This document shows positions 2,471-17,711 of a stretch of DNA of 21,103 nucleotides, piece by piece. Made by a program: the position numbers and the translations under genes. Numbering within the stretch: position 1 is the first letter of the stretch; each line of letters begins with the position of its first letter. Source of the DNA: a virus. Taxonomy: Duplodnaviria; Heunggongvirae; Uroviricota; Caudoviricetes. The stretch is from positions 1 through 21,103 of the IMG/VR virus record IMGVR_UViG_2547132281_000013; one strand, 5' to 3'. Below the pieces are notes generated by a model. That model searched no databases, was not told where the DNA came from, and worked only from the letters and a program-made list of their open reading frames with translations.

Positions 2471-2525
2471 CCGCTTTTCACCGTCTCGGGTGAGATAACA
2501 ATTCCTGTATGAGTTTTTATCACGC

Positions 2526-2888
2526 TCATTTCTTAGTCTCCGGTGCTTTCGGCATTACTGCCCAGTGAGTGATATTGACGTTTTCAAGGTCCCCGACCTG
2601 AAATGTCCACTGCCATTCTCCGGTTTCTTTTTGCCCCCATGTGTACCAGAGAGAACGCCAGCCAATCAGCCAGCCTTCTCCACTAGCATCAAATAACAGA
2701 ACACTTTCATTTGCTGGTGGCAGTTCAGCTGACACTGGTATTATTTTGTTTTCCAGTGCCGCACATTTAGCTTCAAGCGCGTTGAATTTACGTACCAGGT
2801 ACTCAGCATTTGTTTCGTTCACTTTCAGATCTCGCGGTACACATTTCCCGCGAAGAAACCCTTCCATTTCGAAAACATTCATGCGCAT
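2526..2888 (-). CDS. DUF551/Ea22-like prophage early protein
   Basis: 120-aa ORF with a Trp-rich C-terminus (GWRSLWYTWGQKETGEWQWTF...ITHWAVMP) resembling the DUF551 domain of lambdoid early-left proteins. Assigned from memory of the motif, not by search. Confidence 0.4.
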   Translation of the reverse strand: MRMNVFEMEGFLRGKCVPRDLKVNETNAEYLVRKFNALEAKCAALENKIIPVSAELPPANESVLLFDASGEGWLIGWRSLWYTWGQKETGEWQWTFQVGDLENVNITHWAVMPKAPETKK

Positions 2889-3414
2889 TTGCGTAACTCC
2901 GATAACTCGTTAAAACGTTCCATAAACATCCCGTAGGCCTGGCCCGGTGCCAGTGGAATCACGTTGAACATCTCTGTTGCCGGGATGCCTTCCAGTACAG
3001 GCCAGAAAGAGCCATCATCAAGCCCGAGATCGCGGCGTTCGGTTGCCAGCATGATGAGATCGGCATATTTCACAGGCGTGCTCATAACCGGGGTAACCCG
3101 TATTTCTCACGGATTACAGCGTCTATTTTTTCTTCCATCCGTTTATAGTCAGGAAGAAGGCGTTTCAGTGGCGCCGGGATGTCCTGGCAATACGCTTCTG
3201 TTGCATCATGCATTAACGCTTCAAAAGCAAATTCCTGCGGTACCAGTTGGCTGCAAAGCACCGCATGTTGGGCGACGCTGTAGAAATGTGAAAGATGTCC
3301 TGCAAAGCGACAGATATTTGAAAGAGAAACCGCGATATCGTTAATAACGATGTCGTCTTTATTTATCCTGTCATAATAAAAATGCTTCCCGGAAAAAGTT
3401 TTAATAAATGACAT
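2879..3414 (-). pseudogene. yfdR: HD-domain 5'-nucleotidase-like gene (YfdR-like) split by a frameshift at a homopolymer
   Basis: Two adjacent minus-strand ORFs: 3082-3414 (MSFIKTF...REKYGLPRL, with the His and HD motifs AGHLSH and LMHDATEAY) and 2879-3085 (MSTPVKYADL...). They overlap at the tract CCGGGG (plus 3088-3093). Inserting one G/C restores a single 178-aa frame (...GLPPVMSTPVKY...). The likely start is the ATG at 3414, which has GGAG 8 nt upstream. Confidence 0.6.
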
Positions 3415-3507
3415 TTTGTTCTCCACGTATATGCGCTGCACCGCGCTGAATTCTGGTAAAAGGAAGCCCTCACCATCCGGCGATTATTGAGTCAATTACG
3501 TTTCCAT

Positions 3508-3529
3508 AAATGCCCCCGCAGGGGCATTT
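3508..3529 (-). terminator. perfect 9-bp GC-rich hairpin between yfdQ-like and yfdR-like genes (attenuator or weak terminator)
   Basis: AAATGCCCC-CGCA-GGGGCATTT. The U-tract on the minus transcript is only partial (AUUUAU). Confidence 0.3.
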
Positions 3530-3541
3530 GCAGTAATGAAA

Positions 3542-4366
3542 TCAGGCGGTGAAAGTACCAATAAAGGTTTCTACTTTGCTGTCCTTGAATTTCTCAACAA
3601 GCAGATCACGAAATTCGTTAGCCATTTCTTCCTGCACTGCTTCCAGCTGAATAATGCGCAGAACCAGTACAGGACGATCGCCAGTGATAATGCTGAGGCG
3701 TAATTTAAACGGACGTTCTTTCAGGCCTTCAAACGGAACGCATTTAAATTCAAATGCCACAGGCATAATATCTTTGGTCTTCGCTTCGACAGACTCCATC
3801 AGGGAGCGTTTGCCGCTGAAGTCATTGTCTTCAAAATCAGCGGTCTGGTTTGCTTCAATCGTGATTTTACGGACTGCCGCAGCCGCTTTTGTTGCCTGAA
3901 TGGCATCACCATTAGCATCAAAGCCCACAAGGTAGTCGGCCCAGTCTTCGATCCATTCTGCCAGTGACTTCTGGGAGTTACGCTCGCCGTTAACAGACAA
4001 CAGAGCAGAGAACGGTGCTGTCTTTTTCAGTTTGAGAGTGGCAGTGTTATCTGCGTGACCTGGCTCATCAATAGTACCCAGGTTAAGCACACTGACGGCA
4101 CGCATATTATCGGCATCGATAAAGCAGCGGGTGCCTTCATCTGCAAGATCTTTAGAATAACGGGTAAAGTCATCGATGCTGGCAGTGGAAAGCGCACCAC
4201 GGAAACGGAAACGATTTAAATTAAATTTTTCCAGATCATGAATGCGGAAATTCTCAGGCAATGCCACAGCATCGGCACCAATCTTACTGATAATTTCATT
4301 AACACCCTGAGCAGAAATAAGGGCATGGATTTGATTAATTGCGGTTACGTCTAAGTTCTGAGACAT
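3542..4366 (-). CDS. yfdQ: YfdQ-like prophage protein (DUF2303 family)
   Basis: 274-aa ORF with GAGGA 7 nt upstream of the ATG. Length and sequence are recalled as matching CPS-53 YfdQ; assigned from memory. Confidence 0.55.
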
Positions 4367-4431
4367 AATAAGTCCTCACTATATAAAGATATTCAGTGAT
4401 GAGATAAATAATCAGTTTATTAAGAACGATA

Positions 4432-4794
4432 TTAACGACCTGCTGCGCGGAGTTTTCCGTCAGGTTCACCGGCAAGAGTCAGTAATTGTCCCTGGTCTTC
4501 CTGCAGAATAGTCAGGCGACCACCGCGATCGACATACATTGGCGTTTCGGTGGTGTCTTCTTCGGAAATTTTCCCGCGGTTAGTCGGGCGAACATATGAG
4601 AGTTTGTGTTTGATTTTCACACGGTTCTCATCAAACGGTTCGATTTCCAGATTGAGTGAGACCTTCCCTTTGGTTTTCGTGTTCATCACACCGGAAGCGA
4701 CTTCACTGAGAACTGCGCCGATTTTGGTTTCAAATACGCCGCCGTCCAGCTCCCCGATAAATGCCTGCACATCAGTACTGCGTTCGCTAGCCAT
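4432..4794 (-). CDS. yfdP: YfdP-like prophage protein
   Basis: Within ORF 4432-5112 the coding-like part begins at the internal ATG at 4794 (MASERSTDVQAFIGELDGG..., 120 aa), which has GAGGAG 9 nt upstream. The upstream extension is Arg/Cys-rich and not protein-like. Confidence 0.5.
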   Translation of the reverse strand: MASERSTDVQAFIGELDGGVFETKIGAVLSEVASGVMNTKTKGKVSLNLEIEPFDENRVKIKHKLSYVRPTNRGKISEEDTTETPMYVDRGGRLTILQEDQGQLLTLAGEPDGKLRAAGR

Positions 4795-4930
4795 TTTGCT
4801 GCTCCTCATCATATCGACCCTGCAAGGCCGATTAGTTTCTCCACAAAACAGAGAAGAACACCTGCGGTGGCAGCCGCCCGGATGGATTGGGTTATGAGCC
4901 CGTCGTCCGGTGATGCTCTTCTCTGTTTTG

Positions 4931-4977
4931 TAAAAAGAGCGGTACCAGCCGGAAGCAAGGGTACAAACTGGTACCGC
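4931..4977 (-). terminator. tL-like hairpin followed by a T-run on the minus strand
   Basis: 10-bp perfect inverted repeat GCGGTACCAG / CTGGTACCGC (4939-4948 and 4968-4977) with a 19-nt loop. On the minus transcript it is followed immediately by UCUUUUUA. Confidence 0.35.
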
Positions 4978-5194
4978 CAGGACTACACACAGCATAAAGT
5001 TGTGGTGCCGGGTGCCTCCCGGTGCCTGGCGAAGGTTGCACACCAGACGGGTGGGTATCCACAGAAGGTCGACTGTCAGCCTCAACCTTAACCCGCGTGC
5101 GCTGAGCCGCATTCACCACAACGCTAAGGATTCTCTCTGGTTGAAAATACTTAGCTGTTATGTGCCTGCTTTTAGCCACATCAGGCGAGGTGGA

Positions 5195-5248
5195 CCTGGT
5201 TATTCCCCAACAACAAGGATTCGGTTAATCTGGTTATCCCCAACAACG
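5195..5248 (+). repeat. imperfect direct repeat (CTGGTTAT[T]CCCCAACAAC, two copies) just upstream of ORF 5263
   Basis: Copies at about 5195-5215 and 5230-5248, ending 15 bp before the RBS (AAGGAAAAG) of the 144-aa ORF. Confidence 0.4.
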
Positions 5249-5262
5249 CAAAAGGAAAAGAA

Positions 5263-5697
5263 ATGTCCGGTAATATCTACACGCTGTACAAATCCCACTG
5301 TGAAAATGTTGGAAAGTATCGGGGCATTGAAATCAGTGGGGTAGTGTCATCAGTCGAAATAAGCAGAGTGGAATCAAGGGCAACATTACTTACTCTTCTG
5401 GACCTTGTCTTACATGAGCACCGGAAGAAATTCGGCACTCCCTATAATCAGTTGAATGGGAAAAAGGCTCTGGTTCACCTTATTCTGATGAAGCATCACT
5501 GGATGCCAAAACAGATTAATGAGATGAAATTCGATGAACTTCTTCTTTCAATTCAGGATGAACTCACACTTGATAAAATAAGCGTAACCGCCCAGAAATT
5601 TTTAGATTATCGAGACTGGAGATCACAAATTCATCACTTTGATGATTTTGACGAAAATGAATGGGAGCCTAATTTGTCTGCACAATATCTAAAGTAA
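5263..5697 (+). CDS. hypothetical protein, 144 aa; moron-like gene antisense to the leftward early operon
   Basis: ATG with AAGGAAAAG RBS. No transmembrane segment and no recognised domain. Its 3' end overlaps the convergent small ORF at 5669-5875 by 29 bp. Confidence 0.45.
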   Translation: MSGNIYTLYKSHCENVGKYRGIEISGVVSSVEISRVESRATLLTLLDLVLHEHRKKFGTPYNQLNGKKALVHLILMKHHWMPKQINEMKFDELLLSIQDELTLDKISVTAQKFLDYRDWRSQIHHFDDFDENEWEPNLSAQYLK

Positions 5698-5875
5698 CAT
5701 CCTGTGATAAAACCGTGATTTCCTGATCCAGTTTTTTTAAGGAGTCTATTGTTTCCTGTCGATAAGACAGCACTTCACGAAGCTGGTTTATAGCTGCCAG
5801 CTTCTTTGTCATCCACTCGTAAATTTCCTCATTTGTGTATCCGGGCGCGACGATTTTTGGTTCTTTTTTGTGCAT
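5669..5875 (-). CDS. small hypothetical protein, 68 aa; first gene of the leftward (PL-like) operon
   Basis: The ORF track begins at a TTG, but the likely start is the ATG at 5875 (MHKKEPKIV...), which has GAGGAGG 7 nt upstream. Not Arg-rich, so not an obvious N-type antiterminator. Confidence 0.4.
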   Translation of the reverse strand: MHKKEPKIVAPGYTNEEIYEWMTKKLAAINQLREVLSYRQETIDSLKKLDQEITVLSQDVTLDIVQTN

Positions 5876-5935
5876 TTCACACCTCCTCAAGTTATCAGTT
5901 ACTTGTTGATGGGGACCAGATTGTTAAAGAGCTAA

Positions 5936-5956
5936 GCGCCCGAAAGGGCGTTTTTT
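5936..5956 (+). terminator. putative rho-independent terminator on the plus strand
   Basis: GCGCCC-GAAA-GGGCG followed by TTTTTT. Confidence 0.4.
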
Positions 5957-6025
5957 GTTGCTAACGAATCATCCTGGACTTCATATGCCTCAGGCGGCTA
6001 CTTCGTGGGCGTCCTGCCTGTTCTT

Positions 6026-6062
6026 TGTTTCGTTTGGGTACATTATGTATCTCAAGGGTACA
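6026..6062. promoter_or_regulatory. OL-like operator pair
   Basis: TGTTT-N7-GTACA (6026-6042) and TGTAT-N7-GTACA (6046-6062). The GGGTACATT motif occurs twice. Same half-site family as the cI/cro intergenic operators. Confidence 0.45.
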
Positions 6063-6073
6063 TTGTCAAGTAT

Positions 6074-6096
6074 AAAAAAACCTGCCGAAGCAGGTT
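6074..6096 (-). terminator. rho-independent terminator downstream of the repressor gene
   Basis: Minus-strand stem AACCTGC-TTCG-GCAGGTT followed by a run of seven T; lies 13 bp past the cI stop. Confidence 0.5.
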
Positions 6097-6108
6097 CATA
6101 GACATTGA

Positions 6109-6783
6109 TTAGGCTTTGATTTTGTATCTTCTTGGTTTTCCTGAGAAAATCACTGTACCAATTATAGAGCAATTACCGTTGATCTTAATGTAAGGCTCAG
6201 GCCAATTTGGGTTTAACGCTTTGAGATAACGCTGTGTCCCATCTTCTATCAACCTTTTGAAGGTGGTTTCACCTGTATCGTGCATCAATGCAATAACATC
6301 GTCACCGTGGCAGGCAGGTACTTCAGGATCGACAAAAATCATGTCTCCCGGGCGGTACTCATCAATCATTGAATCACCTATCACCCGCAAGATATAAGTC
6401 ATTTCCCCACAGGGTACAGGGCAGGGATACGTTTCTGCTGTGCTCAAATCAACCTCAGAATATCCAACTTCTTTCCATGCTCCGGCCTGTACCCATGATA
6501 TGACAGGGACTAATGTGATTTGTTTATTAGTGATTGAAACATCAGGTTTTTTTGTGATGTTCGTTGTCTGGTGTTCTTGATCGAGCCATCCGATAGGCAG
6601 GTCGAAACATTTTTCGATGTGTCGTGCCATGCTGTCACCGATATTTTTAGTAGCACCATCTCCCATAAACCTGCTGGTCTGGGTTGGCTCGCGATCAATC
6701 ATAGTGGCAAAGGAAGAATTCCCGCCAACACCATCTCTCAGTTTTCTGGCGTTAGACCGCCGGATGTCATGGATTGTTTTCAT
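6109..6783 (-). CDS. cI: CI-like prophage repressor (N-terminal HTH, C-terminal S24 LexA-type autopeptidase)
   Basis: 224 aa. The C-terminal domain carries the S24 catalytic Ser (RVIGDSM) and a downstream Lys (TTFKRL). Divergent from a Cro-like gene across an operator-bearing intergenic region. Confidence 0.85.
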   Translation of the reverse strand: MKTIHDIRRSNARKLRDGVGGNSSFATMIDREPTQTSRFMGDGATKNIGDSMARHIEKCFDLPIGWLDQEHQTTNITKKPDVSITNKQITLVPVISWVQAGAWKEVGYSEVDLSTAETYPCPVPCGEMTYILRVIGDSMIDEYRPGDMIFVDPEVPACHGDDVIALMHDTGETTFKRLIEDGTQRYLKALNPNWPEPYIKINGNCSIIGTVIFSGKPRRYKIKA

Positions 6784-6873
6784 AACGAAATTAAAACCCT
6801 TGTACCGTTAAGGTACAAGTGTCTTGAAGGTTCATTTCAATCATGTAATATGTACACCGGAGGTACATATTGT
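6784..6873. promoter_or_regulatory. divergent immunity control region (OR/PR/PRM-like)
   Basis: Two dyad operators TGTAC-N7-GTACA at 6801-6817 (within the 21-bp palindrome CTTGTACCGTTAAGGTACAAG) and 6851-6867. Candidate rightward promoter: -35 TTGAAG (6824-6829), 16-bp spacer, -10 TAATAT (6846-6851). The second operator overlaps the -10 and the start site. Confidence 0.55.
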
Positions 6874-7074
6874 ATGAAAGCGTATTGGGACTCTTTAACC
6901 AAAGAACAGCAGGGCGAGTTGGCCGGAAAAGTTGGCTCAACACCTGGCTACTTACGGCTGGTTTTCAATGGCTATAAAAAAGCCAGTTTTGTGCTGGCTA
7001 AAAAACTTGAGCAATGCACGTCAGGTGCAATTACGAAATCTGACTTAAGACCGGATATCTATCCGAAAGATTAG
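6874..7074 (+). CDS. cro: Cro-like HTH regulator
   Basis: 66 aa from the ATG at 6874, with GGAGG 10 nt upstream. The longer ORF-track frame (6571-) runs antisense into cI and is rejected. Confidence 0.6.
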   Translation: MKAYWDSLTKEQQGELAGKVGSTPGYLRLVFNGYKKASFVLAKKLEQCTSGAITKSDLRPDIYPKD

Positions 7075-7105
7075 CAGAACACCTTCAATTTTTAACCACA
7101 GAACG

Positions 7106-7672
7106 ATGAGGCTAACCGTGGGTAAGCATCACTGGAAAATAGAAAAACAGCCTGAGTGGTACGTGAAAGCTGTCAGAAAAACTATCGCAGCGTTGCCGGG
7201 GGGTTACGCTGAAGCAGCTGACTGGCTGGATGTAACAGAGAACGCATTATTTAACCGCCTTCGTGCCGATGGCGATCAGATTTTCCCGCTGGGATGGGCA
7301 ATGATTTTGCAACGTGCTGGTGGAACTCACTTCATTGCTGACGCTGTGGCGCAGTCTGCAAATGGCGTCTTTGTGTCTCTTCCTGATGTCGAGGATGTGG
7401 ACAACGCCGATATCAACCAACGCCTGCTGGAGGTCATTGAACAGATCGGCAGTTATTCAAAACAGATTCGTTCAGCAATTGAAGACGGTGTAGTGGAACC
7501 GCATGAGAAGACAGCAATTAACGACGAGCTGTACCTCTCAATTTCGAAGCTGCAGGAGCATGCAGCACTGGTCTACAAAATTTTTAGTACATTCAAGAGA
7601 AGTAATGACGCCCGCGAGTGTGCAGCTCCGGGCGCCGTGGCGTGTCGTGACTGTGGAGAAACTAACGCATGA
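7106..7672 (+). CDS. YmfL-like putative early regulator (CII-position gene)
   Basis: 188 aa, immediately downstream of cro. Length and position match e14 ymfL from memory. An alternative GTG start at 7121 has a better SD. Confidence 0.45.
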
Positions 7673-8007
7673 ACAGTTTAACAACACACTACCGTCGCTC
7701 GCAACTGATTGCGCTTCCTGTACCGGGTGGAAAAGCGAAGGTGGAGTATTGCTATGCAGTAAATGTACCAGGTGGCAGGGTAATTGTAACCCACAGCTTT
7801 GCAGAGTGGGCTGTGGGTGATTTTAACCGGCAAAAGGAGACAGTCCTTTGCGACAAGTTAACCGCTGGTTCAAAGATCACTACGGAGTACCCGTCAGAGT
7901 CATTCGTTGGGAGCCGGAAACACAACGGGTTATCTACCTCCGCGAAGGCTATGAGCATGAATGCTTCAGTCCGCTCGAACAGTTTCGTCGTAAATTCAGG
8001 GAAATAG
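7669..8007 (+). CDS. YmfM-like hypothetical protein, 112 aa
   Basis: ATGA start/stop coupling with the preceding gene. The 3' half overlaps an alternative-frame ORF that has a stronger RBS (next feature). Confidence 0.35.
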
Positions 8008-8027
8008 AGGTCGGTCATGAGCACTAA
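7848..8027 (+). CDS. small DUF4222-like protein, 59 aa, TTG start, in an alternative frame
   Basis: AAGGAG at 7833-7838, 9 nt upstream of TTG 7848. Product [58 protein letters not shown] is protein-like and recalled as resembling DUF4222 prophage proteins. Confidence 0.4.
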
Positions 8028-8292
8028 ATTAACCGGCTATGTATGGGATGGTTGCGCTGCATCAGGCATGAAGTTATCCAGCGTGGCAATTATGGCACGC
8101 CTGGCTGATTTCAGTAATGACGAAGGTGTGTGCTGGCCATCAATTGAAACCATTGCCCGTCAGATTGGCGCGGGGATGAGTACCGTCAGAACGGCTATCG
8201 CACGGCTGGAAGCAGAAGGCTGGTTAACGCGTAAGGCGCGTCGCCAGGGTAGAGACAACAAAAGGAGCCTGGGATGTACAGCAGACTGTTAA
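8017..8292 (+). pseudogene. N-terminal fragment of a phage replication-initiation (O-like, HTH) protein
   Basis: The first ~77 aa ([78 protein letters not shown]) look like a replication-protein N-terminus. The frame then runs into unrelated sequence and stops at 91 aa, where full-length proteins are much longer. Confidence 0.5.
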
Positions 8293-8492
8293 TCATCTAC
8301 CTGATGACGATGTTGACCGTGAGTTGCGCGAAAACTTTACCCGCAAAACCTGAAGTAACGGACACGGCCTGTGACTGGGTAAGAATCATCTACCTCACAG
8401 GTCAGGACATTGAAGTGCTGGATAAGCTTACGAAGCGGGATATTCTGGCACATAACAAAGCAGTACAGCGCAACTGTATTAGCCAGTTATGA
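8274..8492 (+). CDS. small putative exported protein or lipoprotein (possibly Rz1/o-spanin-like)
   Basis: AAGGAG 7 nt upstream of the ATG. Hydrophobic N-terminus ending in a near-lipobox (LTVSC). Position is upstream of the packaging genes. Confidence 0.3.
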   Translation: MYSRLLIIYLMTMLTVSCAKTLPAKPEVTDTACDWVRIIYLTGQDIEVLDKLTKRDILAHNKAVQRNCISQL

Positions 8493-8534
8493 GGCAAACG
8501 AGATTGCGGGCAATTATCGCCCGCAATAAAGTTA

Positions 8535-8798
8535 TCAATTATCTCCTTTAAAGGAGTCGTATTCACCCCAATCAGCAAACCCAATCGGTCTTTTAGGGGT
8601 CTCTAAGCATAAGCGTTTTTTTCGGATTAGCAGGACATTTATTTGAGATACATGCTGAACAAGTTCTACAGGACTGCCATCCTCCAGAGTACCAATGAAA
8701 GAAATTAATGATGGATTCCAGTAGCTTATGTCTGTGAAATGAAATTCAATGTTTTTACCAAAGCTAGCTAGTTGTCCTCCTACCTCATACTCTTCTTC
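8535..8798 (-). pseudogene. 3' portion of a small ORF interrupted by the IS66-family element
   Basis: Continues the frame of 11506-11631 once the IS and one copy of the target duplication are removed (...EEEYEVGGQLASFGKNIEFHF...GEYDSFKGDN). Confidence 0.5.
8791..8798. repeat. 8-bp target-site duplication TCTTCTTC (left copy)
   Basis: Identical 8-mer abuts both ends of the IS66-family element. Confidence 0.8.
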
Positions 8799-8828
8799 GT
8801 AAGCGACTCGTCAGAACCGTATTGATAT

Positions 8829-10400
8829 TTACTGAGAGCTCAGATCAACTTTCCAGGGCAACAGATCGCGTACCCGGTTTGCCGGCCAGTCCTGGATATG
8901 TTCAATGACGTAACGCAGCCACTTTTCTGGCTCCACATTGTTCAGACGGCATGTGCCGATCAGCGAGTACAACACCGCCGCATGTTCACCACCGCTGTCG
9001 GAACCCGCGAACATCCAGTTTTTCCGGCCTACGGCCACTCCCCGTAAGGCGTTCTCTGCGATGTTGTTGTCGATTTCCACCCAGCCATTACTGCAGTACA
9101 CGTTCAGTGCATCCCACTGTTTCAGCAGGTATGCGAACGCTTTTGCCGTATCTGAGTGACGCGACAGTGTTTTCATCTGTTGCTGTATCCAGTCATACAG
9201 TGACTGCATCAGTGGCGCGGCTCTGGCTTTTCTTGCCGCCAGACGCTGTTCTGCTGAACAGCCCCGGACCTCTGCCTCGATGGCATACAGTTCACCGATA
9301 CGCTGCAGGGCTTCCGTGGTGATGTCGGTGGGCGCTCTTGCATGCACATCGTGGATTTTTCTCCGGGCATGAGCCATACACGCGGCTTCCGTTATTCTGC
9401 CGGATTCGTATAACGCCCGGTAACCACCGTAAGCATCGGCCTGAAGCACACCGCTGTAACCGGCCAGGTGATTTTGTGGATGGATACCTTTCCGGTCCGG
9501 ACTGTACGCGAACCAGACCGCCGGGGGCATCTGTGAACCGGCGTTACGGTCATCACGGACGTAGACCCACAGCCGGGCTGTCCGGGTTTTACCGCTGCCC
9601 GGCTCCTGGACCGGGACGGGGATATCATCAGCATGGACTTTACCGGGCATCAGCACATACTGGCGCAGGACGTCATACAGCGGCTCCAGCAGTTCAGCAA
9701 CAGCACCTGTCCAGCGCCCCAGTGTGGCACGGCTCAGCTCCACTCCCTGACGACGGTATATTTCTGACTGGCGGTATAACGGCAGATGGTCTGCATATTT
9801 CCCGGTGACAACATGGGCCAGAAGCCCCGCTCCGGCATAACTGCGTGCAATGGGTTTTGAAGGTACTGGTGCCTGCACGATATGGTCGCACCGGCAACAG
9901 GCCTGTTTCGGACGTTGTGTTTCGATAACCTTAAAGGCGCTGCTGATAAGCTCCAGTTGCTCTGACACATCACATCCCAGAGAACTGAGTTCACCACCAC
10001 AGGCAGGACAGCATTCCTCTTCCGGCCGGATAACCCGGGTTTCACGGGGAAGTGAGGCCGGTAACGGTTTACGGGCTGAAGACTGGCGCAGGGCGGATGG
10101 CAGTACCGGGTCATATTGCTCACCCAGCGTTTCCGCCATTTCTTCCTGAAGTGCGCTGATTCGCTCCTGTGCTTCCTGTATCTGCCGTTCGGTTTTTGCA
10201 CGAAGTTTTTCTGAGCTTTTACCGAACTGCATGCGCTGCAGTTTCGCAACCAGCGCCTTCAGCCGGTTGATTTCGGAAGCATAAGCCGCCACCCGCTGTG
10301 AGAGCAGGCGGTTGTATTCAGCCATCTGGCGGATGGTGTCCTGTTGCGTCTGCAACAGTGCCCGCAGGCGGGCGTTCTCATGAGCAAGTGAGGTGTCCAT
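8829..10400 (-). CDS. tnpC: IS66-family transposase TnpC
   Basis: 523 aa with an N-terminal coiled-coil/leucine-zipper region, a CxxC...C zinc-finger-like motif (CCPACGGEL...) and a DDE-type core. Confidence 0.85.
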
Positions 10401-10419
10401 ATCCTCACTTTACAACGGG

Positions 10420-10767
10420 TTATATGCGGATTCCAGCGCGTTCCGTTCGTTTCGGGTGCTTCCAGTTGATACCTTCAAGAAGCATGGATAACTGAGCCGG
10501 AGTAAGGTGCACCTTGCCGTCACGGGTGACTGGCCAGACGAAGCGGCCCCGCTCCAGGCGTTTGGTGAAGAGGCACAGTCCGTCACTGTCAGCCCACAAC
10601 ACTTTTATCTGGTCACCCCGGCGTCCGCGGAAGATGAACAGGTGTCCGGAGAACGGGTCATCCTTCAGGACGTTCTGAACTTTTGATGCCAGGCCGTTAA
10701 AGCCATTTCGCATATCGGTGATACCTGCAACCAGCCAGATACGCGAACCTGCAGGGAGAGATATCAT
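10420..10767 (-). CDS. tnpB: IS66-family accessory protein TnpB
   Basis: 115 aa, typical IS66 Orf2 (LWADSDGLCLFTKRLERGRFVWP), translationally coupled to tnpA. Confidence 0.8.
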   Translation of the reverse strand: MISLPAGSRIWLVAGITDMRNGFNGLASKVQNVLKDDPFSGHLFIFRGRRGDQIKVLWADSDGLCLFTKRLERGRFVWPVTRDGKVHLTPAQLSMLLEGINWKHPKRTERAGIRI

Positions 10768-11444
10768 CAGTGGCTGCTCCCTTTTATTTCGCGGATAAGT
10801 GTCTGTAATAACGCCGGCGTCAGTTTACCTTTAAGCCTGAGAGTTCCGGCCGGCAGAACCAGCTCACAACACAGACTGTCGGACGGTGTATTTATCTGCT
10901 CTGGTTCCTGTGCGGGGGCCGGGATTTTATTATCCGGCTCCGGCGTTAACGTCACGGGAAGCAGTGCCGGCATATTTTTTCCGGAAGGCAGCAGGCCACC
11001 TTTCCGGTATTGATGGCGCCAGTTGAAGAGCAGGTTATCGTTGATTCCGTTTTCCCGGGCGATCTGCGCCACACAGGCTCCGGGCTGCAGTGACTGCTCC
11101 ACTAAGGCGATTTTAAACTCATAAGGGAAGTTGGGCCGCCGGGGACGTTTTTTTACCACGGGGGCTTCGGATATAACGGTGCTTTCAGGACGTACGACTG
11201 GTACCGTGGAAAATTGTCCGTAAAGGCAGGCATCAAGTTCCTGCTCCGACATGCCTGCGGGCAAAGGCCACGAAAGGCCAGCTCTCCGAAAGCGCACGAA
11301 CATACTACAAACTGTTGATTTTGGTACACCCAGGCGACGCCCGGCCACAACCCGGGGTAAATGTTCTTCAAAGTGAAGACGTAAAGCTTCAGTGATCCAG
11401 GTCCGGTGTTTCATACGATAGTGTCCATTAAAAATGATGGACAT
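10767..11444 (-). CDS. tnpA: IS66-family accessory protein TnpA (HTH), with an N-terminal extension
   Basis: The C-terminal part carries the IS66 OrfA HTH (PRRPNFPYEFKIALVEQSLQPGACVAQIARENGINDNLLFNWRHQYRKG). Start is uncertain between the ATGs at 11444 and 11414. Confidence 0.7.
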   Translation of the reverse strand: MSIIFNGHYRMKHRTWITEALRLHFEEHLPRVVAGRRLGVPKSTVCSMFVRFRRAGLSWPLPAGMSEQELDACLYGQFSTVPVVRPESTVISEAPVVKKRPRRPNFPYEFKIALVEQSLQPGACVAQIARENGINDNLLFNWRHQYRKGGLLPSGKNMPALLPVTLTPEPDNKIPAPAQEPEQINTPSDSLCCELVLPAGTLRLKGKLTPALLQTLIREIKGSSH

Positions 11445-11497
11445 TATTTTTGTAGAGCCGGAGGAAACAGACCAGACGGTTTAAATGAGCCGGTTAC

Positions 11498-11505
11498 TCT
11501 TCTTC
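11498..11505. repeat. 8-bp target-site duplication TCTTCTTC (right copy)
   Basis: Identical to 8791-8798. Confidence 0.8.
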
Positions 11506-11631
11506 AAGTTCACGGTGAAAATCATTTATCCAGCATATAAGGCGTCTATGAAATTCATTTGCAAGATTGTAGTCCTTTGGAACATATGGCTGTGAGTATT
11601 TGAGGAAATCATTCATGTAGTTATTTGTCAT
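11506..11631 (-). pseudogene. 5' portion of the small ORF interrupted by the IS66-family element
   Basis: ATG at 11631 with AAGGA about 8 nt upstream (MTNNYMNDFLKYSQPYVPKDYNLANEFHRRLICWINDFHRELEE...). The frame runs into the target duplication and the IS end. Confidence 0.5.
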
Positions 11632-11729
11632 CAGGGCGTCCTTTACGAGCATAACCATTGTTACTTAACGGATTGAAACGCTATTAAATAACATGGTTTC
11701 TATCATAATTTCTATCCGGAGTTTTCCAT

Positions 11730-12080
11730 ATGCCGCCACGAATCCCAAAAGCCTGCCGTGTTCGCGGCTGTCGTTCTACCACTACAGATCCGTCAGGCTA
11801 CTGCGAAAATCATAAAGGTGAGGGCTGGAAATCCTACAAGCCAGGTCAATCACGGCAGCAGCGCGGATATGGAACAAAGTGGGAAGTCATCCGGGAGCGG
11901 ATACTAAAGCGCGACAAAGGGTTATGTCAGAACCATCTTCGGCAGGGAGTTGTGAAGCAAGCGTCCTGCGTGGATCACCTCAAGGCGAAGGCTCACGGCG
12001 GCACTGATGAAGACAGCAACCTTGAGAGTCTGTGCTGGTCGTGTCACGCAGTGAAGACCGCGCGTGAGCGGTTCAGGTGA
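11730..12080 (+). CDS. phage-associated HNH endonuclease
   Basis: 116 aa with the HNH signature (CVDHLKAKAHGGTDEDSNLESLCWSCH) and N-terminal Cys pairs. GGAG 8 nt upstream. Sits next to the terminase genes, as is common in cos-type packaging modules. Confidence 0.8.
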   Translation: MPPRIPKACRVRGCRSTTTDPSGYCENHKGEGWKSYKPGQSRQQRGYGTKWEVIRERILKRDKGLCQNHLRQGVVKQASCVDHLKAKAHGGTDEDSNLESLCWSCHAVKTARERFR

Positions 12081-12197: not shown

Positions 12198-12701
12198 GTG
12201 CCGCATATGGCTGGAACGGCGGGGCGTTCCGGGCGTCGCCCCAAGCCAACGGCGCGCAAGGCGCTGGCCGGAAACCCCGGCAAGCGAGCCCTGAATAAAG
12301 ATGAACCTGTTTTTACGCCCATCAAAGGTGTTGAGCCACCGGAGTGGTTCGCTGAAGAAGATCTCCCTCTCGCCACGATCATGTGGCAACTGACAACTAA
12401 AGAACTCTGCGGTCAGGGCCTGCTGTGCGTGACTGACCTCGCAGTGCTTGAGCGGTGGTGTGTGGCCTATGAGTTCTGGCGACGTGCCGTGAAAAATATT
12501 GCCAGACAGGGCAACACCATCACCGGTGCAATGGGCGGTATGGTCAAAAATCCGGAGCTGACCGCCAAAAAAGAACAGGAGTCCGAGATGAGCAGTACGG
12601 GGGCAATGCTCGGACTCGACCCCAGCAGCCGCCAGCGTCTAATTGGCCTGGCGGGGAAGAAGAAAGCCACTAACCCGTTTCTGAAAATCATCGAATCATG
12701 A
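12198..12701 (+). CDS. terminase small subunit (P27-family-like)
   Basis: [21 protein letters not shown] motif. The likely start is the ATG at 12207, which has AGGAG 8 nt upstream; the ORF-track start at 12198 is a GTG. Stop overlaps the terL start (ATGA). Confidence 0.75.
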
Positions 12702-13561
12702 GCCGGAAATCTTACCCCAACGTAAATGCTGCCAATCAGTATGCCCGTGATGTCGTGCGCGGAAAGATTGTGGCCTGCCAGTTTGTGATTCAGGCCTGCC
12801 AGCGGCATCTTGATGACCTGATGGCGGAAAAAAGTAAGTCGTTTCGTTACCGCTTCGACAAGGACCTGGCTGAACGGGCCGCTAAATTTATTCAGCTGTT
12901 GCCGCACACCAAGGGTGAGTGGGCATTTAAGAGGATGCCCATCACGCTGGAGCTGTGGCAGCTCTTTGTGATCTGCTGCGCGTTTGGCTGGGTCAATAAA
13001 GGCTCCCGGCTGCGCCGCTTCCGTGAGGTGTATACCGAAATCCCCCGTAAGAACGGCAAATCGGCAATCTCTGCCGGTGTCGCCCTGTATTGTTTTGCCT
13101 GTGATAACGAGTTCGGCGCGGAAGTGTATTCCGGTGCCACGACGGAGAAACAGGCATGGGAAGTCTTTCGTCCGGCAAGACTGATGTGTAAACGCACACC
13201 CATGCTAACGGAAGCGTTCGGGATTGAGGTTAACGCCTCAAACATGAACCGTCCGGAGGATGGTGCGCGTTTTGAACCGCTGATCGGTAACCCCGGTGAT
13301 GGTTCATCACCCCACTGTGCGGTGGTGGATGAATATCACGAGCACGCCACCGATGCGCTTTACACCACGATGCTTACCGGGATGGGGGCGCGACGTCAGC
13401 CACTGATGTGGGCCATTACTACTGCCGGGTACAACATTGAGGGGCCGTGCTACGACAAGCGGCGGGAAGTTATCGAGATGCTCAACGGGTCGGTACCTGG
13501 CCTGCGGTACAGAATGACCGTTACGGCTCCCGACTGTGGCTGCTTCAGCGCAGCAAACTGA
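12698..13561 (+). pseudogene. terminase large subunit, N-terminal ATPase portion only (truncated)
   Basis: Walker A-like GKS (PRKNGKSA) and Walker B-like VVDEYHE are present. The frame stops at 287 aa after a non-conserved tail, and no nuclease domain follows. Confidence 0.65.
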
Positions 13562-13770
13562 CCAATCAGCTGGTGCAGACGGTAAGGGGGTATATCCGCG
13601 AATGCCTGCAATGGATGATTGATGACGGCGTGGTGTCCCGTATTGATCTGGATATCCGCCGCACCGGGATTAATGAACTGGGTAACAGTATCACTCTCTG
13701 GCGTCGTGACGGACCGGTAATGATTTCTTTTGATGATCTGTGGAGTGCGATAACGCATGGCGGACAGTGA
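13562..13770 (+). pseudogene. start-less C-terminal remnant of the gene preceding baseplate J (possibly gpW/gp25-like)
   Basis: Protein-like frame (...IRECLQWMIDDGVVSRIDLDIRRTGINELGNSITLWRRDGPVMISFDDLW...) ending in overlap with the baseplate J start. No credible start or RBS after the terL stop. Confidence 0.25.
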
Positions 13771-14815
13771 ATTTCAGCGCCCGACGCTGGCAGAAAATAT
13801 CAGTATGCTCCGTAACGATTTATTCGCCAGGCTGGACGTCAGCGACACGCTCCGGCGCATGGATGAAGACGTGCGGGCAAAGGTGTATGCGGCGGCGCTG
13901 CATACGGTTTACGGTTACATCGATTATCTGGCAATGAACATGCTGCCTGACCTGTGCGATGAGTCCTGGCTGGCGCGACATGCTGCGATGAAACGGTGTC
14001 CGCGCAAGGGAGCCACGGCTGCCAGTGGGTATATGCGCTGGGAAGGTGTCAGCGATGGCCTGAAGGTGACCGCCGGGAGTGTTATTCAGCGCGATGACCT
14101 GGTGCAGTACACGACAACTGACGATGCAACCAGCTCCGGTGGTGTCCTGCGCGTGCCGATCGCCTGCTCAAGTGCAGGTGCGGTCGGTAACGCTGACGAC
14201 GGTACGGCATTAATCCTGGTCACGCCGGTGAATGGTCTGCCGTCTTCCGGTGTGGCTGACACCCTGACAGGCGGATTTGATACTGAAGAGCTGGAAACGT
14301 GGCGCGCCCGCGTCATTGAGCGGTATTACTGGACGCCGCAGGGCGGGGCTGACGGGGACTATGTTGTCTGGGCTAAAGAAGTGCCCGGCATTACCCGCGC
14401 ATGGACATACCGACACTGGATGGGAACGGGGACTGTCGGTGTGATGATTGCCAGCAGCGACCTGATTAACCCCATTCCGGAAGAATCAACGGAAACGGCG
14501 GCAAGACAACACATTGAGCCACTGGCCCCGGTGGCAGGCTCTGATTTGTATGTATTCAGGCCGGTGGCGCACAAAGTGGATTTTCATATCCGCGTGACTC
14601 CGGACACACCGGAAATACGGGATGCCATCACCGCGGAGTTGCGTTCATTCCTGCTGCGTGATGGTTATCCGCAGGGAGAGCTGAAGGTATCGCGTATCAG
14701 TGAAGCGATTTCCGGTGCGAACGGGGAATACAGCCATCAGTTGCTTGCTCCGGCGGACAATATCTCCATTGCAAAAAATGAACTGGCGGTTCTGGGGACG
14801 ATTTCATGGACGTGA
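13757..14815 (+). CDS. baseplate assembly protein J-like (P2 gpJ family)
   Basis: 352 aa. Position immediately upstream of a gpI-like and tail-fibre gene with overlapping start/stop, and overall similarity to the e14 jayE-type protein. Confidence 0.75.
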
Positions 14816-15390
14816 CAAACGATGATTACATCCGTCTGTTGTCGGCACTGTTGCCCCCTGGTCCGGCGTGGTCAGCCAGCGATCCGGCGATTGCCGGTGC
14901 GGCACCGTCATTAACCCGTGCTCATCAGCGTGCGGATGCCCTGATGCGGGAGCTGGATCCGCGCACCACCACCGAACTGATAAACCGCTGGGAGCGTCTG
15001 TGCGGCCTGCCGGATGAATGTATTCCGGCAGGGACGCAGACCCTTCGCCAGCGTCAGCAACGGCTGGATGCGAAGGTTAACCTGGCGGGCGGCATCAATG
15101 AGGATTTTTACCTTGCGCAGCTTGCTGCCCTGGGCAGACCAGATGCCACCATCACGCGATACGACAAAAGCACGTTCACCTGCTCATCGGCCTGTACTGA
15201 CGCGGTGAATGCGCCGGAATGGCGGTATTACTGGCAGGTCAATATGCCAGCTGCCACCAACACCACCTGGATGACATGTGGCGATCCCTGCGATTCCGCA
15301 CTGCGTATCTGGGGGGACACCGTTATCGAGTGCGTGCTTAACAAACTCTGCCCGTCGCATACCTACGTAATTTTTAAATATCCGGAGTAA
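14806..15390 (+). CDS. P2 gpI-like tail protein (YmfQ-like)
   Basis: 194 aa, overlapping the gpJ-like stop. Conserved N-terminal LLPPGPAW motif. Length matches e14 YmfQ from memory. Confidence 0.7.
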
Positions 15391-15393
15391 TCC

Positions 15394-16320
15394 ATGCATC
15401 GTATAGACACGAAAACCGCGCAAAAGGATAAGTTCGGCGCGGGTAAGAACGGTTTTACCCGTGGTAACCCCCAGACAGGCACGCCTGCCACCGATCTGGA
15501 TGATGACTACTTTGACATGTTGCAGGAAGAGCTCTGCAGCGTGGTGGAGGCATCCGGTGCCAGCCTGGAGAAGGGGCGGCATGACCAGCTGCTTACCGCG
15601 CTTCGTGCGCTGCTGTTAAGTCGCAAAAATCCGTTTGGCGATATCAAATCGGACGGCACGGTGAAAACGGCTCTTCAAAACCTTGGTTTGGGAGATACAA
15701 GCGGATACGTGGGACGCCGGCTGAGTACCTGGGCTTTCGCGTCATCAGGTACGTATACCCCATCACTAGAAACAAAACGGATCAGGGTCACAATAACGGG
15801 CGGCGGTGGCGGAGGGGGGGGCTGCCAGGCTATATCCAGTAACGAAACGTTTTTCGGTGCTGGCGGTGGGGCCGGAGGGACAGTAATCACCATACTGACC
15901 CCGACACAGAATAGTTATCCTGTCACTATCGGCGCAGGTGGGGCCGGCGGCGTTGGTGCGACGAACGGCCTCAAGGGCGGTGATAGCTCGTTCGGATCGG
16001 TAATAGCCCCTGGTGGTGAAGGCGGCGGAAAATCAGGAGTCACAAACACAAACGGCGGTAACGGAGGCGTACCGAATATTGGCGATATCCGCATCACTGG
16101 TGGAGATGGAGGCGACGGTCAGTCCGGGAATATCGGCGTCAGCGGTGAAGGCGGTGCATCGTACTGGGGAGGCGGTGGACGCGCAGGCTCTGGCGGTGGC
16201 GTTAGAGGCAGGGCATTTGGTTCAGGCGGAGGTGGTGCATACGATGCAGGTTATAGCGGAACCAGTATGACGGGCGGGAAAGGTGCTGCTGGGGTTTGTA
16301 TTATCGAGGAGTTTGCATAA
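15394..16320 (+). CDS. side tail fibre protein (constant N-terminus plus Gly-rich variable C-terminus)
   Basis: N-terminus [47 protein letters not shown]... is the conserved Mu/e14-type fibre N-terminal region. The C-terminus is made of GGxGG repeats. The gene crosses the invertible-segment boundary at 15683-15684. Confidence 0.8.
15671..15696. other. Din-family (gix/hix/pix-like) recombination site, left boundary of the invertible segment
   Basis: CTCTTCAAAACC-TT-GGTTTGGGAGAT is an imperfect 26-bp dyad resembling hix/gix, and is an inverted copy of the site at 17503-17528. Confidence 0.6.
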
Positions 16321-16730
16321 TGAATGCGTCATATGCAGTTATTGAAAATGGGATGGTTGTGAATGTCATTGTCTGGGATGGCGAGGATGAATTCACTGTG
16401 CCGGATAATCTGCAGCTCATTAATATTTCTGATATCAGTGAGCAGCCCGGAATCGGCTGGGCGTATTCAGACGGGATATTTACTGCGCCGCTCCCTCCGG
16501 AACGTTCTCATGATGAACTGGTAGCTGACGCTGAACAGAAAAAACAGTCGCTGATAGACGCAGCAATGGCCAATATCAGCGTGATTCAGTTAAAGCTGCA
16601 GGCCGGGCGCAAACTGACGCAAGAAGAAACTACCAGACTTAACGTTGTGCTGGATTACATTGACGCGGTGACAGCAACTGATACCAGCACCGCGCCAGAT
16701 GTCATCTGGCCTGAACTGCCGGAGGCGTAG
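16320..16730 (+). CDS. tfa: tail fibre assembly protein
   Basis: Start ATG overlaps the stf stop (TAATG), with GAGGAG 9 nt upstream. C-terminal ...LDYIDAVTATDTSTAPDVIWPELP is the conserved tail-fibre-assembly motif. Confidence 0.8.
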   Translation: MNASYAVIENGMVVNVIVWDGEDEFTVPDNLQLINISDISEQPGIGWAYSDGIFTAPLPPERSHDELVADAEQKKQSLIDAAMANISVIQLKLQAGRKLTQEETTRLNVVLDYIDAVTATDTSTAPDVIWPELPEA

Positions 16731-17142
16731 GCCATTCAATATCTGGCGCACTGGAAGTATCGACCAGCTCCAGTGCGTCCAGATAATCCAGCCACAAATT
16801 ATATTGCGCCAGTTCCTCACCTTTCAGACGACCAATAGCCGCTTTACCAGCCCATTGTTTACTGTTCATATAATCGTTGGCCTGATTAATCAATTGCTGC
16901 TTTTCCAGTTCGGCTGCAGCAATCTGTTCCTCATGTGTTGGTGGTGGAATTTCAGACCATGCAGGAAAACCATTTTCTCCAGCGATACGGATTTTTCCTT
17001 TCGGCGGTAATCCGGAAAACTCAATATACGCTTGCTCATCAACTTCAACAGCATCATCTGGCCATGAGTCAGCTTGAGTGTAATCCTCTTTCATTTCCAG
17101 TGGATAGAAAGAGTTTGTAGTCGCGGAATATATGTAATTCAT
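16702..17142 (-). CDS. tfa: tail fibre assembly protein, alternative copy
   Basis: 146 aa. C-terminal ...LWLDYLDALELVDTSSAPDIEWPTPP. Its 3' end converges on and overlaps the other tfa. Confidence 0.8.
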   Translation of the reverse strand: MNYIYSATTNSFYPLEMKEDYTQADSWPDDAVEVDEQAYIEFSGLPPKGKIRIAGENGFPAWSEIPPPTHEEQIAAAELEKQQLINQANDYMNSKQWAGKAAIGRLKGEELAQYNLWLDYLDALELVDTSSAPDIEWPTPPAVQAR

Positions 17143-17163
17143 TTTTCACTCCATATAGCTAAA

Positions 17164-17514
17164 TTAACAGCCTAACGCTAAAAATGAAGCGCCGAGACCT
17201 GGAGTACTGGCTCTGGATATAAATTTAACCGGGTCGGAACTAAAAGCTGCGCAGGCAATATAACCAACAGACCCGCTATCTGGTGTGTAGTCTTGTGAGA
17301 CCAAAACACGCAGACATCGGTTTGGAAATGCAATCGGAAAATGGGTTACCACATCCTGTGCAATGCCTGGTGCGCCGATTGAGCCCCACTGAAGAATAAA
17401 ACCAGATGGTAATTTTTGATATCCAGTACCTGAAACAGAAAGCGTGAAGCTACCCATATCAGGTATCTGATTCGTCCCTGTCCCCACATTCCTTTTTGCC
17501 GCTTCTCCCAAACC
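17164..17514 (-). CDS. alternative tail-fibre C-terminal segment, start-less; expressed only after inversion
   Basis: The frame begins exactly at the crossover core (GGT TTG GGA GAA = GLGE...), matching the ...QNLGLGD... junction in stf. The first 14 ORF-track codons (17515-17556) lie outside the segment and are not coding. Confidence 0.6.
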
Positions 17515-17528
17515 AACGTTTATGAAAA
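17503..17528. other. Din-family recombination site, right boundary of the invertible segment
   Basis: TTCTCCCAAACC-AA-CGTTTATGAAAA, about 55 bp upstream of the pin remnant. Shares GGTTTGGGAGA with the left site in inverted orientation. Confidence 0.6.
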
Positions 17529-17582
17529 TGCAGAAATAACAAGCAAATGGCATCATTCCTGCTTTTGTCAGGGAGATCTATC

Positions 17583-17711
17583 ATGCTTATTGGTTATGTA
17601 CGCGTATCAACAAATGACCAGAATACCGATCTACAACGCAATGCGCTGAACTGTGCAGGGTGTGAGCTGATTTTTGAAGACAAGATAAGCGGTACAAAGT
17701 CCGAGACCTAG
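17583..17711 (+). pseudogene. pin: DNA invertase (Pin/Gin/Hin serine recombinase) remnant, N-terminal 42 codons
   Basis: MLIGYVRVSTNDQNTDLQRNALNCAGCELIFEDKISGTKSE matches the conserved N-terminus of Din invertases, including the catalytic Ser in VRVSTNDQ. A stop follows codon 42 and downstream sequence is unrelated. Confidence 0.8.

What the first reader, a model, noticed from the sequence alone, without database searches (positions are those of the whole stretch)
8791..11631. Complete IS66-family element with 8-bp TCTTCTTC target duplication interrupting a small minus-strand ORF
The terminal inverted repeats start at 8799 (GTAAGCG...) and end at 11497, and the identical 8-mer TCTTCTTC abuts both ends (8791-8798 and 11498-11505). 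Removing the element and one repeat copy joins 11506-11631 and 8535-8798 into one minus-strand ORF of roughly 128 aa with a proper RBS (MTNNYMNDFLKYSQ...GEYDSFKGDN). The intact duplication and undisturbed ORF halves argue for a recent insertion. The interrupted gene is a moron-position gene between the lysis-remnant region and the packaging genes (the bor-like position) and has no recognised family.
Basis: seen in the sequence. Interest (0 to 1): 0.55.

Follow-up and report, generated by a model that had tools for sequence, protein, structure and literature searches.

The report
ISCro1 insertion splitting a prophage gene
A well-known jumping gene (insertion sequence ISCro1) has recently landed in, and knocked out, a small prophage gene of unknown function (DUF6173 family) inside an already decaying E. 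coli prophage. This is an ordinary event.

Summary
Window 8799-11497 is a complete 2,699-bp IS66-family element with intact tnpA, tnpB and tnpC on the minus strand. It has GTAAGCG.../...GGTTAC inverted ends and a perfect 8-bp duplication, TCTTCTTC. It is 100% identical to ISCro1 copies in many E. coli genomes, and five of those copies have the same ends, each with its own 8-bp duplication.

In-silico excision restores a 129-aa ORF. Its 390 nt are identical (0 differences) to the intact gene for WP_000184049.1. The empty site occurs in 32 complete E. coli genomes, while no complete genome carries this insertion. So this is a recent, lineage-private transposition.

- The element is ISCro1, not shown to be IS679.
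- The interrupted gene does have a recognised family: Pfam DUF6173 (76 bits) and PHROG 3306, both of unknown function.

DUF6173 is a strongly conserved, solitary cargo gene of mobile elements. It usually sits antisense between the spanin and small-terminase genes of temperate phages. Its predicted fold is a small Sm/SH3-like barrel, and its function remains unknown.

The host prophage is itself a remnant, with a 5.6-8.2 kb deletion of the replication-to-lysis genes and a truncated terminase. Verdict: real, fully explained, already known in kind, low interest.

The parts
8791..8798 (.). Target-site duplication, left copy (TCTTCTTC). It also forms part of the 3' fragment of the DUF6173 gene.
   Evidence: The empty site in L001 and L032 holds a single copy.
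8799..8820 (.). Terminal inverted repeat of ISCro1 at the tnpC-distal end (GTAAGCGACTCGTCAGAACCGT).
   Evidence: (pair I7, 22 nt, 73% complementary). The same end is found in five other copies.
8829..10400 (-). tnpC, the IS66-family DDE transposase, 523 aa.
   Evidence: Pfam DDE_Tnp_IS66 E 7e-104, plus zf-IS66, LZ_Tnp_IS66 and DDE_Tnp_IS66_C. Same coordinates as RefSeq WP_000381379.1 in identical copies.
10420..10767 (-). tnpB, the IS66 accessory protein, 115 aa (unrelated to the IS605 TnpB nuclease).
   Evidence: Pfam TnpB_IS66 E 4.7e-40. Corresponds to RefSeq WP_000624622.1.
10767..11444 (-). tnpA, the IS66 accessory HTH protein, 225 aa. Its stop codon overlaps the tnpB start codon (ATGA).
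   Evidence: Pfam HTH_Tnp_1 E 8.6e-15. Corresponds to RefSeq WP_001339397.1. The overlap is read.
11476..11497 (.). Terminal inverted repeat of ISCro1 at the tnpA-proximal end (...ACGGTTTAAATGAGCCGGTTAC).
11498..11505 (.). Target-site duplication, right copy (TCTTCTTC).
11506..11631 (-). 5' fragment of the DUF6173 gene. Together with the adjacent duplication copy it encodes codons 1-45, and the terminal GTAA of the IS supplies an immediate stop (...HRELEEE*).
8535..8798 (-). 3' fragment of the DUF6173 gene: the last base of codon 42 through codon 129 plus the stop, its first 8 nt being the duplicated target. It encodes the whole predicted beta-barrel and is now cut off from its start codon.
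   Evidence: Structure model.
11639..11643 (-). Shine-Dalgarno-like AAGGA, 7 nt upstream of the DUF6173 ATG.
   Evidence: Read directly from the sequence.
8503..8527 (.). Stable GC-rich hairpin between the convergent spanin and DUF6173 genes. It is probably a bidirectional terminator.
   Evidence: 11-bp stem, -18 kcal/mol, z -4.3 against shuffles. The terminator function is inferred. The consensus scan did not list it because the T-tail is weak.

Best explanation
A copy of ISCro1, a 2,699-bp IS66-family insertion sequence, transposed into codons 42-45 of a 129-codon DUF6173-family gene. ISCro1 encodes the DDE transposase TnpC and the accessory proteins TnpA and TnpB.

The target gene is a low-GC, antisense accessory gene ('moron'). 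It lies between the spanin gene and the HNH and terminase genes of an e14-like prophage at the E. coli yejM-proL locus.

Staggered cleavage of the target TCTTCTTC, followed by repair, produced the 8-bp direct duplication. The gene is now split. The 5' piece can make only a 45-residue peptide, ended by a stop codon that the IS terminus supplies. The 3' piece, which encodes the whole conserved beta-barrel, has no start codon or promoter of its own. The result is a null allele.

The event is recent and private to this lineage. It is one of several independent lesions in a prophage that is already non-functional.

Shown here: the identity, ends and duplication of the IS, the empty site, the identity of the gene, and the deletions. 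Inferred: the biochemical steps of transposition, which rest on family knowledge, the loss of function, and any role of DUF6173.
For: IS identity:
- 100.0% identity over all 2,699 bp to copies that RefSeq annotates as ISCro1, with tnpA, tnpB and tnpC.
- Pfam IS66 domains.
- Published ISCro1 length of 2,699 bp and an 8-bp duplication (PMC12115866).

Ends and duplication:
- Five other identical copies share the GTAAGCG.../...GGTTAC ends, each with a different perfect 8-bp duplication.

Empty site:
- A 994-bp excised reconstruction matches 32 complete E. coli genomes at 98.5-100% identity over at least 87% of its length.
- The reconstructed ORF has 0 of 390 nt differences from the annotated DUF6173 gene in L001 and L032.

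Private event:
- No complete genome covers the IS/flank junction, and there is no exact match in the GTDB representative genomes.

Gene family:
- PF19670, 76.1 bits.

Prophage decay:
- The nearest relative, NZ_CM143725.1, is 99.9% identical on both arms but has different internal deletions.
- The window-specific deletion junction at 8246-8251 shows 6-bp microhomology.
- The large terminase is cut at about 13497.
Against: Nothing contradicts the explanation. Limits:
- The ISfinder reference sequence of ISCro1 was not available, so the name rests on RefSeq annotation of identical copies and on the published length and duplication.
- Three bases (TAC) happen to match on both sides beyond the 8-mer, so this one locus alone would also allow an 11-bp duplication. 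The five other copies settle the ends.
- No sigma-70 consensus promoter was found for the DUF6173 gene, so its expression in the intact state is assumed, not shown.
Confidence: 0.95

Rival explanations
1. Assembly artefact: because ISCro1 is multi-copy in many strains, an assembler placed a repeat copy at the wrong locus, and the gene is intact in the real genome.
For: ISCro1 is highly repeated, with up to 34 places per genome. The source assembly of the window is unknown, and no other genome shows this junction.
Against: A misplaced repeat would not create a perfect 8-bp duplication of a target that is single-copy in the empty site. Nor would it place full-length ends exactly where five independent copies end.
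Confidence: 0.02
2. The insertion is not neutral. Either inactivation of DUF6173 was selected (for example, the product became costly once the prophage decayed), or the IS was retained because it alters expression of the neighbouring HNH and terminase genes or of the 3' gene fragment.
For: DUF6173 is otherwise very strongly conserved, with 34 invariant columns across phyla, so its loss is a definite change of phenotype. The IS genes run in the same direction as the split gene, so read-through into the 3' fragment is conceivable.
Against: This is a single private event. The prophage is accumulating unrelated deletions and frameshifts, as expected for neutral decay. The target is AT-rich like the other ISCro1 duplications seen here, which fits plain target preference. 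There is no in-frame start for the 3' fragment downstream of the IS.
Confidence: 0.05
3. The flanking 8-mers and the split ORF result from homologous recombination between two ISCro1 copies (an IS-mediated rearrangement), not from a simple insertion.
For: ISCro1-mediated recombination between replicons has been reported (PMC12115866).
Against: Recombination between two copies at different sites would leave unlike 8-mers on the two sides and non-contiguous flanks. Here the flanks are contiguous and identical to the empty site.
Confidence: 0.01

Closest known systems
ISCro1 (IS66 family; first named in Citrobacter rodentium ICC168)
   Same: 100% nucleotide identity over 2,699 bp to copies annotated as ISCro1. 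Same length and 8-bp duplication as published (PMC12115866). Same tnpA-tnpB-tnpC layout.
   Different: Nothing but the insertion site, which is not seen in 5,426 complete E. coli genomes.
IS679 (IS66 family, EPEC plasmid pB171; Han et al. 2001, J Bacteriol 183:4296; details from my own knowledge)
   Same: Three-gene IS66 organisation, about 2.7 kb, 8-bp duplication and GTAA termini.
   Different: IS679 is listed as a separate element from ISCro1 in C. rodentium (PMC3072379). No IS679 reference sequence could be obtained here, so the identity was not measured. A 2,704-bp copy in pYJ4-a is only a frameshifted ISCro1.
ISEc8 (IS66 family of EHEC O157)
   Same: Same family. The tnpC genes are about 71% identical over 870 nt.
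   Different: A clearly different element; only part of tnpC aligns.
Phage lambda bor and other antisense morons downstream of Rz (own knowledge)
   Same: The position and orientation of the interrupted gene. It is antisense to the late operon, immediately after the spanin genes and before the packaging genes. It has lower GC and a hairpin after its stop codon.
   Different: No sequence or fold relation to Bor. DUF6173 has no signal peptide or lipobox, and it is predicted to be a soluble helix plus small beta-barrel.
Sm/Lsm/Hfq-like and WYL small beta-barrel domains

Membership tests
IS66 family insertion sequence | DDE transposase of the IS66 type (TnpC). | tested here: met
   PF03050 E 7e-104, plus zf-IS66, LZ_Tnp_IS66 and IS66_C.
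IS66 family insertion sequence | Accessory genes tnpA and tnpB upstream of tnpC, with tnpA and tnpB overlapping. | tested here: met
   PF01527 in ORF 10767-11444 and PF05717 (E 4.7e-40) in ORF 10420-10767. The ATGA overlap at 10767 is read.
IS66 family insertion sequence | Imperfect terminal inverted repeats beginning GTAA(GCG). | tested here: met
   16 of 22 matched positions, with termini GTAAGCG and GTAACCG. The same termini occur in five other copies.
IS66 family insertion sequence | 8-bp target-site duplication. | tested here: met
   TCTTCTTC on both sides. The target is single-copy in the empty site. Five other copies each carry their own 8-bp duplication.
ISCro1 (named element) | Near-identity in nucleotide sequence to the reference element, with matching length. 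| tested here: met
   100% identity over 2,699 bp to RefSeq-annotated ISCro1 copies. Published length 2,699 bp and 8-bp duplication. The ISfinder reference itself was not available.
IS679 (named element) | At least 95% nucleotide identity to IS679 of pB171. | not testable with these tools
   The reference plasmid and the paper are not held.
Pfam DUF6173 (PF19670) | Score above the gathering threshold over most of the model. | tested here: met
   76.1 bits against a cut-off of 27, model positions 16-101 of 102. Identical to WP_000184049.1, 'DUF6173 family protein'.
Phage moron (accessory gene not needed for the lytic cycle) | Independent transcription unit inserted between conserved modules, with deviating composition and patchy presence. 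| tested here: inconclusive
   Met: antisense orientation, 37% GC against 47-56% in the flanks, a hairpin after the stop, and the same slot in unrelated phages. Not met: no sigma-70 consensus promoter was found. Expression in lysogens could not be tested.
Sm/Hfq-like fold | N-terminal helix plus a five-stranded bent barrel, with a significant structural match. | tested here: inconclusive
Known anti-phage defence systems (PADLOC-DB v2) | Match to any defence protein model. | tested here: not met
   0 families at E <= 1.

The most novel reading that the evidence does not exclude
The interest lies in the interrupted gene, not in the IS. DUF6173 is an uncharacterised and unusually conserved small protein. 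Identity is 53-82% between E. coli, Pseudomonas, Pseudoalteromonas, Oxalicibacterium and an Omnitrophota MAG, and the family comprises 1,464 clusters at 50% identity.

It travels as a solitary cargo gene. In many temperate phages it sits antisense in the spanin/terminase slot. Elsewhere it lies next to Tn3-type transposases and resolvases, Pycsar, RES-Xre and type I restriction genes, integrases, and in cassette arrays.

It could be a new lysogen-expressed factor with an Sm-like barrel, acting in exclusion, defence or regulation. The window strain would then be a natural knockout with isogenic-like relatives that keep the intact gene.
Probability: 0.25. Interest if true: 0.5.

Novelty: already known. 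Interest (0 to 1): 0.12.

Why it matters
As found, it matters little. IS insertions into prophage accessory genes are routine, and ISCro1 is abundant: full-length copies occur in 1,492 of 5,426 complete E. coli genomes.

Its practical uses are threefold:
- It is a lineage-specific marker, since the junction is unique.
- It is a clean textbook example of a recent IS66-family transposition with a recoverable empty site.
- It points to DUF6173, a widespread and strongly conserved cargo gene of mobile elements that has no publication and no known function. For that gene, this strain and its relatives (for example CFIAFB20180540) form a natural mutant/wild-type pair.

Tried and rejected
1. IS679 identity. 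I tried to fetch pB171 (AB024946 and NC_002142, neither held; NC_010862 turned out to be pMAR7) and the Han et al. 2001 paper (not held). The 2,704-bp copy in pYJ4-a looked like IS679 by length but is a frameshifted ISCro1.

2. Source of the window. The exact left junction was not found in the GTDB representative genomes or in complete E. coli genomes.

3. Function of DUF6173.
- PADLOC gave no hit.
- A profile search of PDB sequences gave no hit.
- BFVD Foldseek gave nothing significant.
- The afdb50 library was unavailable.
- A literature search for 'DUF6173' returned 0 papers.
- In isolated phage genomes it occurs only in Pseudoalteromonas phage C5a and a C. difficile phage, unannotated in both.
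- It is on few plasmids.

4. Promoter for the DUF6173 gene. The consensus scan found none in the 98-bp divergent intergenic region.

5. An obligatory partner gene was considered and rejected. The neighbours differ in every context.

I used P0001, which is 99% identical, instead.
Full report
**1. The observation.** Reading 8400-11800 and a script confirm every coordinate.
- TCTTCTTC lies at 8791-8798 and at 11498-11505.
- Between the two copies is a 2,699-bp element, 8799-11497. Its ends, GTAAGCGACTCGTCAGAACCGT and (reverse complement) GTAACCGGCTCATTTAAACCGT, match at 16 of 22 positions (pair I7).
- The 8-mer occurs only three times on the + strand of the window.
- Three minus-strand ORFs fill the element: 10767-11444 (225 aa), 10420-10767 (115 aa) and 8829-10400 (523 aa).

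**2. What the element is.** Pfam assigns the three ORFs as follows:
- HTH_Tnp_1 for TnpA.
- TnpB_IS66 for TnpB, E 4.7e-40.
- DDE_Tnp_IS66, E 7e-104, with the IS66 zinc-finger, leucine-zipper and C-terminal modules, for TnpC.

The tnpA stop overlaps the tnpB start (ATGA at 10767).

Megablast against 5,426 complete E. coli genomes finds full-length copies in 1,492 genomes. Several are 100.0% identical over all 2,699 bp, and RefSeq annotates them 'IS66-like element ISCro1 family transposase' with tnpA and tnpB.

In five such copies at unrelated loci (traC, a peptidoglycan DD-metalloendopeptidase (M23-type) gene, xisR, near pcoE, near a eut gene) the element has exactly the same first and last bases. 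Each is flanked by its own perfect 8-bp duplication: GGTCAAAA, GTTTTAAC, CGTTAAAA, CTTTAAAG and GCATGGAA. This fixes the ends here, even though three further bases (TAC) happen to match on both sides.

The literature describes ISCro1 as a 2,699-bp IS66-family element that makes an 8-bp duplication (PMC12115866). It has 24 copies in Citrobacter rodentium ICC168, where it is listed separately from IS679 (PMC3072379). I could not obtain an IS679 reference. The 2,704-bp copy in pYJ4-a is only a frameshifted ISCro1.

**3. The empty site and the interrupted gene.** Removing 8799-11505 gives a 390-nt minus-strand ORF of 129 aa with AAGGA 7 nt upstream of the ATG. A 994-bp reconstruction of the empty site matches 32 complete E. 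coli genomes at 98.5-100% identity over at least 87% of its length, and RefSeq annotates a 'DUF6173 family protein' there.

In two fetched loci (L001, strain CFSAN061769; L032, strain CFIAFB20180540) the annotated gene for WP_000184049.1 is identical to the reconstruction at all 390 nt. No complete genome spans the IS/flank junction, and the exact junction is absent from the GTDB representative genomes.

So the insertion is recent (no divergence in the IS or in either gene half) and private to this lineage. It falls after nucleotide 134 of the gene, so the duplicated 8-mer spans codons 42-45. The IS terminus supplies a stop directly after ...HRELEEE, which leaves a 45-residue peptide. The 3' fragment, which encodes the whole conserved core, has no start of its own.

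**4. The gene has a family.** The protein scores 76.1 bits on Pfam PF19670 (DUF6173; cut-off 27) and matches PHROG 3306, of unknown function. It matches no PADLOC model, and no paper in the library mentions DUF6173.

The word-indexed search found 281 relatives. The exhaustive profile search found 1,464 clusters at 50% identity.

Conservation is striking. Identity to the E. coli protein is 53-82% in Klebsiella, Serratia, Yersinia, Pseudomonas, Aeromonas, Pseudoalteromonas, Oxalicibacterium and an Omnitrophota MAG. There are 34 invariant columns, including W-x-N-x-F-H and P-K-R-P-I-G-F motifs.

An AlphaFold2 model (mean pLDDT 81) has these parts:
- a disordered, variable N-terminus;
- one long helix (residues 30-48);
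- a five-stranded small barrel;
- a short C-terminal helix.

**5. Where DUF6173 genes live.** In Klebsiella and Yersinia lambdoid prophages the gene occupies the same slot as here. It is antisense, between the Rz/lysis genes and the small terminase, although the head modules differ.

In most of the 24 IMG/VR loci examined (of 41 found), the flanking ORFs are on the opposite strand. The upstream neighbour tested was a small terminase in 5 of 6 cases and an integrase in the sixth. Three of the four downstream neighbours tested were Rz-like spanins.

Outside phages, the gene is found in these settings:
- next to a resolvase and a Pycsar system (cyclase plus PycTM) in Pseudomonas;
- next to a Tn3 transposase and a TOPRIM protein, with RES-Xre or type I restriction genes nearby, in marine contigs;
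- in arrays of small cassettes with toxin-antitoxin pairs;
- beside integrases.

It is always solitary, with no constant partner. This is the signature of mobile-element cargo that benefits the carrier, but it does not say how. My best guess is a lysogen-expressed exclusion, defence or regulatory factor that binds a nucleic acid or a conserved host component through its barrel. I put that at about 0.25.

**6. Context: a decaying prophage.** The window carries the following:
- an integrase (836-2044, minus strand);
- yfdQ/yfdR-type early genes;
- an S24 repressor, ymfK (6109-6783, minus strand), and the ymfT and ymfL genes;
- an HNH endonuclease (11730-12080) and a P27-type small terminase (12198-12701);
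- a truncated large terminase (12698-13561, 287 aa);
- baseplate J, Mu gp48 and tail-fibre genes;
- a GmrSD/DUF262 enzyme (17807-19756, minus strand) and IS2.

The locus lies at yejM/tRNA-Pro.

Compared with the fuller prophage in L001, the window lacks 8.2 kb between window positions 8246 and 8251. The lost genes include the rest of the replication-initiator gene, the PerC-family regulator and adenine methylase genes, RusA, KilA-N, DUF968, Q, two holins, the GH19 endolysin and part of the first spanin ORF. Against the nearest relative L032, the corresponding gap is 5.6 kb.

The junction shows 6-bp microhomology, AGGGTA. It fuses the first ~80 residues of the replication-initiator-like protein to spanin sequence (ORF 8017-8292). 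No complete genome shares it.

L032 is 99.9% identical over window 1-8251 and 15379-21103. It keeps that region and an intact DUF6173 gene but has lost the packaging and head genes instead. The IS insertion is thus one of several independent lesions, as expected for neutral decay.

**7. Supporting details for 'moron'.** The ORF has 37.4% GC, against 47% to its left, 56% to its right and 55% in the IS. A stable hairpin (8503-8527, -18 kcal/mol, z -4.3) follows its stop codon, between the convergent genes. No sigma-70 consensus promoter was detected upstream.

**8. Verdict.** It is a known element doing a known thing in a dying prophage, so the kind is already known and the interest is low (0.12). 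What remains interesting is the uncharacterised DUF6173 family itself.

Noticed in passing
window 8017-8292, junction at 8246-8251: Window-specific deletion (8.2 kb relative to L001, 5.6 kb relative to L032). It joins the first ~80 residues of a replication-initiator-like HTH protein to spanin sequence across a 6-bp microhomology, AGGGTA. It removes the replication, Q antiterminator, holin and endolysin genes. No complete E. coli genome shares this junction.
   Followed up: yes
window 12698-13561, break near 13497: The large terminase is truncated (287 aa against 577 aa in L001). Similarity to L001 stops at 13497, and baseplate J (13757-14815) follows. So the portal, protease, capsid, connector and tail-sheath genes seem to be deleted. 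The exact far endpoint was not mapped.
   Followed up: partly
window 8274-8492: An intact 72-aa Rz-like spanin/lipoprotein ORF (PHROG 1275) survives. It is the only remnant of the lysis cassette, and it converges on the DUF6173 gene.
   Followed up: partly
window 17807-19756 (minus strand) and 19875-21103 (minus strand): A GmrSD/DUF262-DUF1524 type IV restriction enzyme gene sits at the right end of the prophage, next to an IS2 (IS3-family) copy. This is a defence gene carried as prophage cargo.
   Followed up: no
window 2300-5120: In the 99.9% identical relative L032, RefSeq marks several early-region genes as frameshifted (yfdR and two hypotheticals). That is further evidence of prophage decay. 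I did not check base by base whether the same frameshifts are present in the window.
   Followed up: no
L002/L003 5176-8288 (Pseudomonas oryzihabitans): The DUF6173 gene sits between a serine resolvase and a Pycsar system (cyclase plus PycTM), followed by umuDC. This looks like a transposon-borne defence cargo block.
   Followed up: partly
P0141 (387 aa) and P0149 (464 aa): Rare fusion proteins with an N-terminal XRE-type HTH and a C-terminal DUF6173 domain. The architecture recalls HTH-WYL regulators and hints at a sensor or regulatory role for the barrel.
   Followed up: partly
ISCro1 target duplications (window, L020-L024, PMC12115866): The seven duplications seen are TCTTCTTC, GGTCAAAA, GTTTTAAC, CGTTAAAA, CTTTAAAG, GCATGGAA and TAACCTTT. 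They average about 68% A+T, which suggests a mild preference for AT-rich targets and fits insertion into a 37% GC gene.
   Followed up: partly
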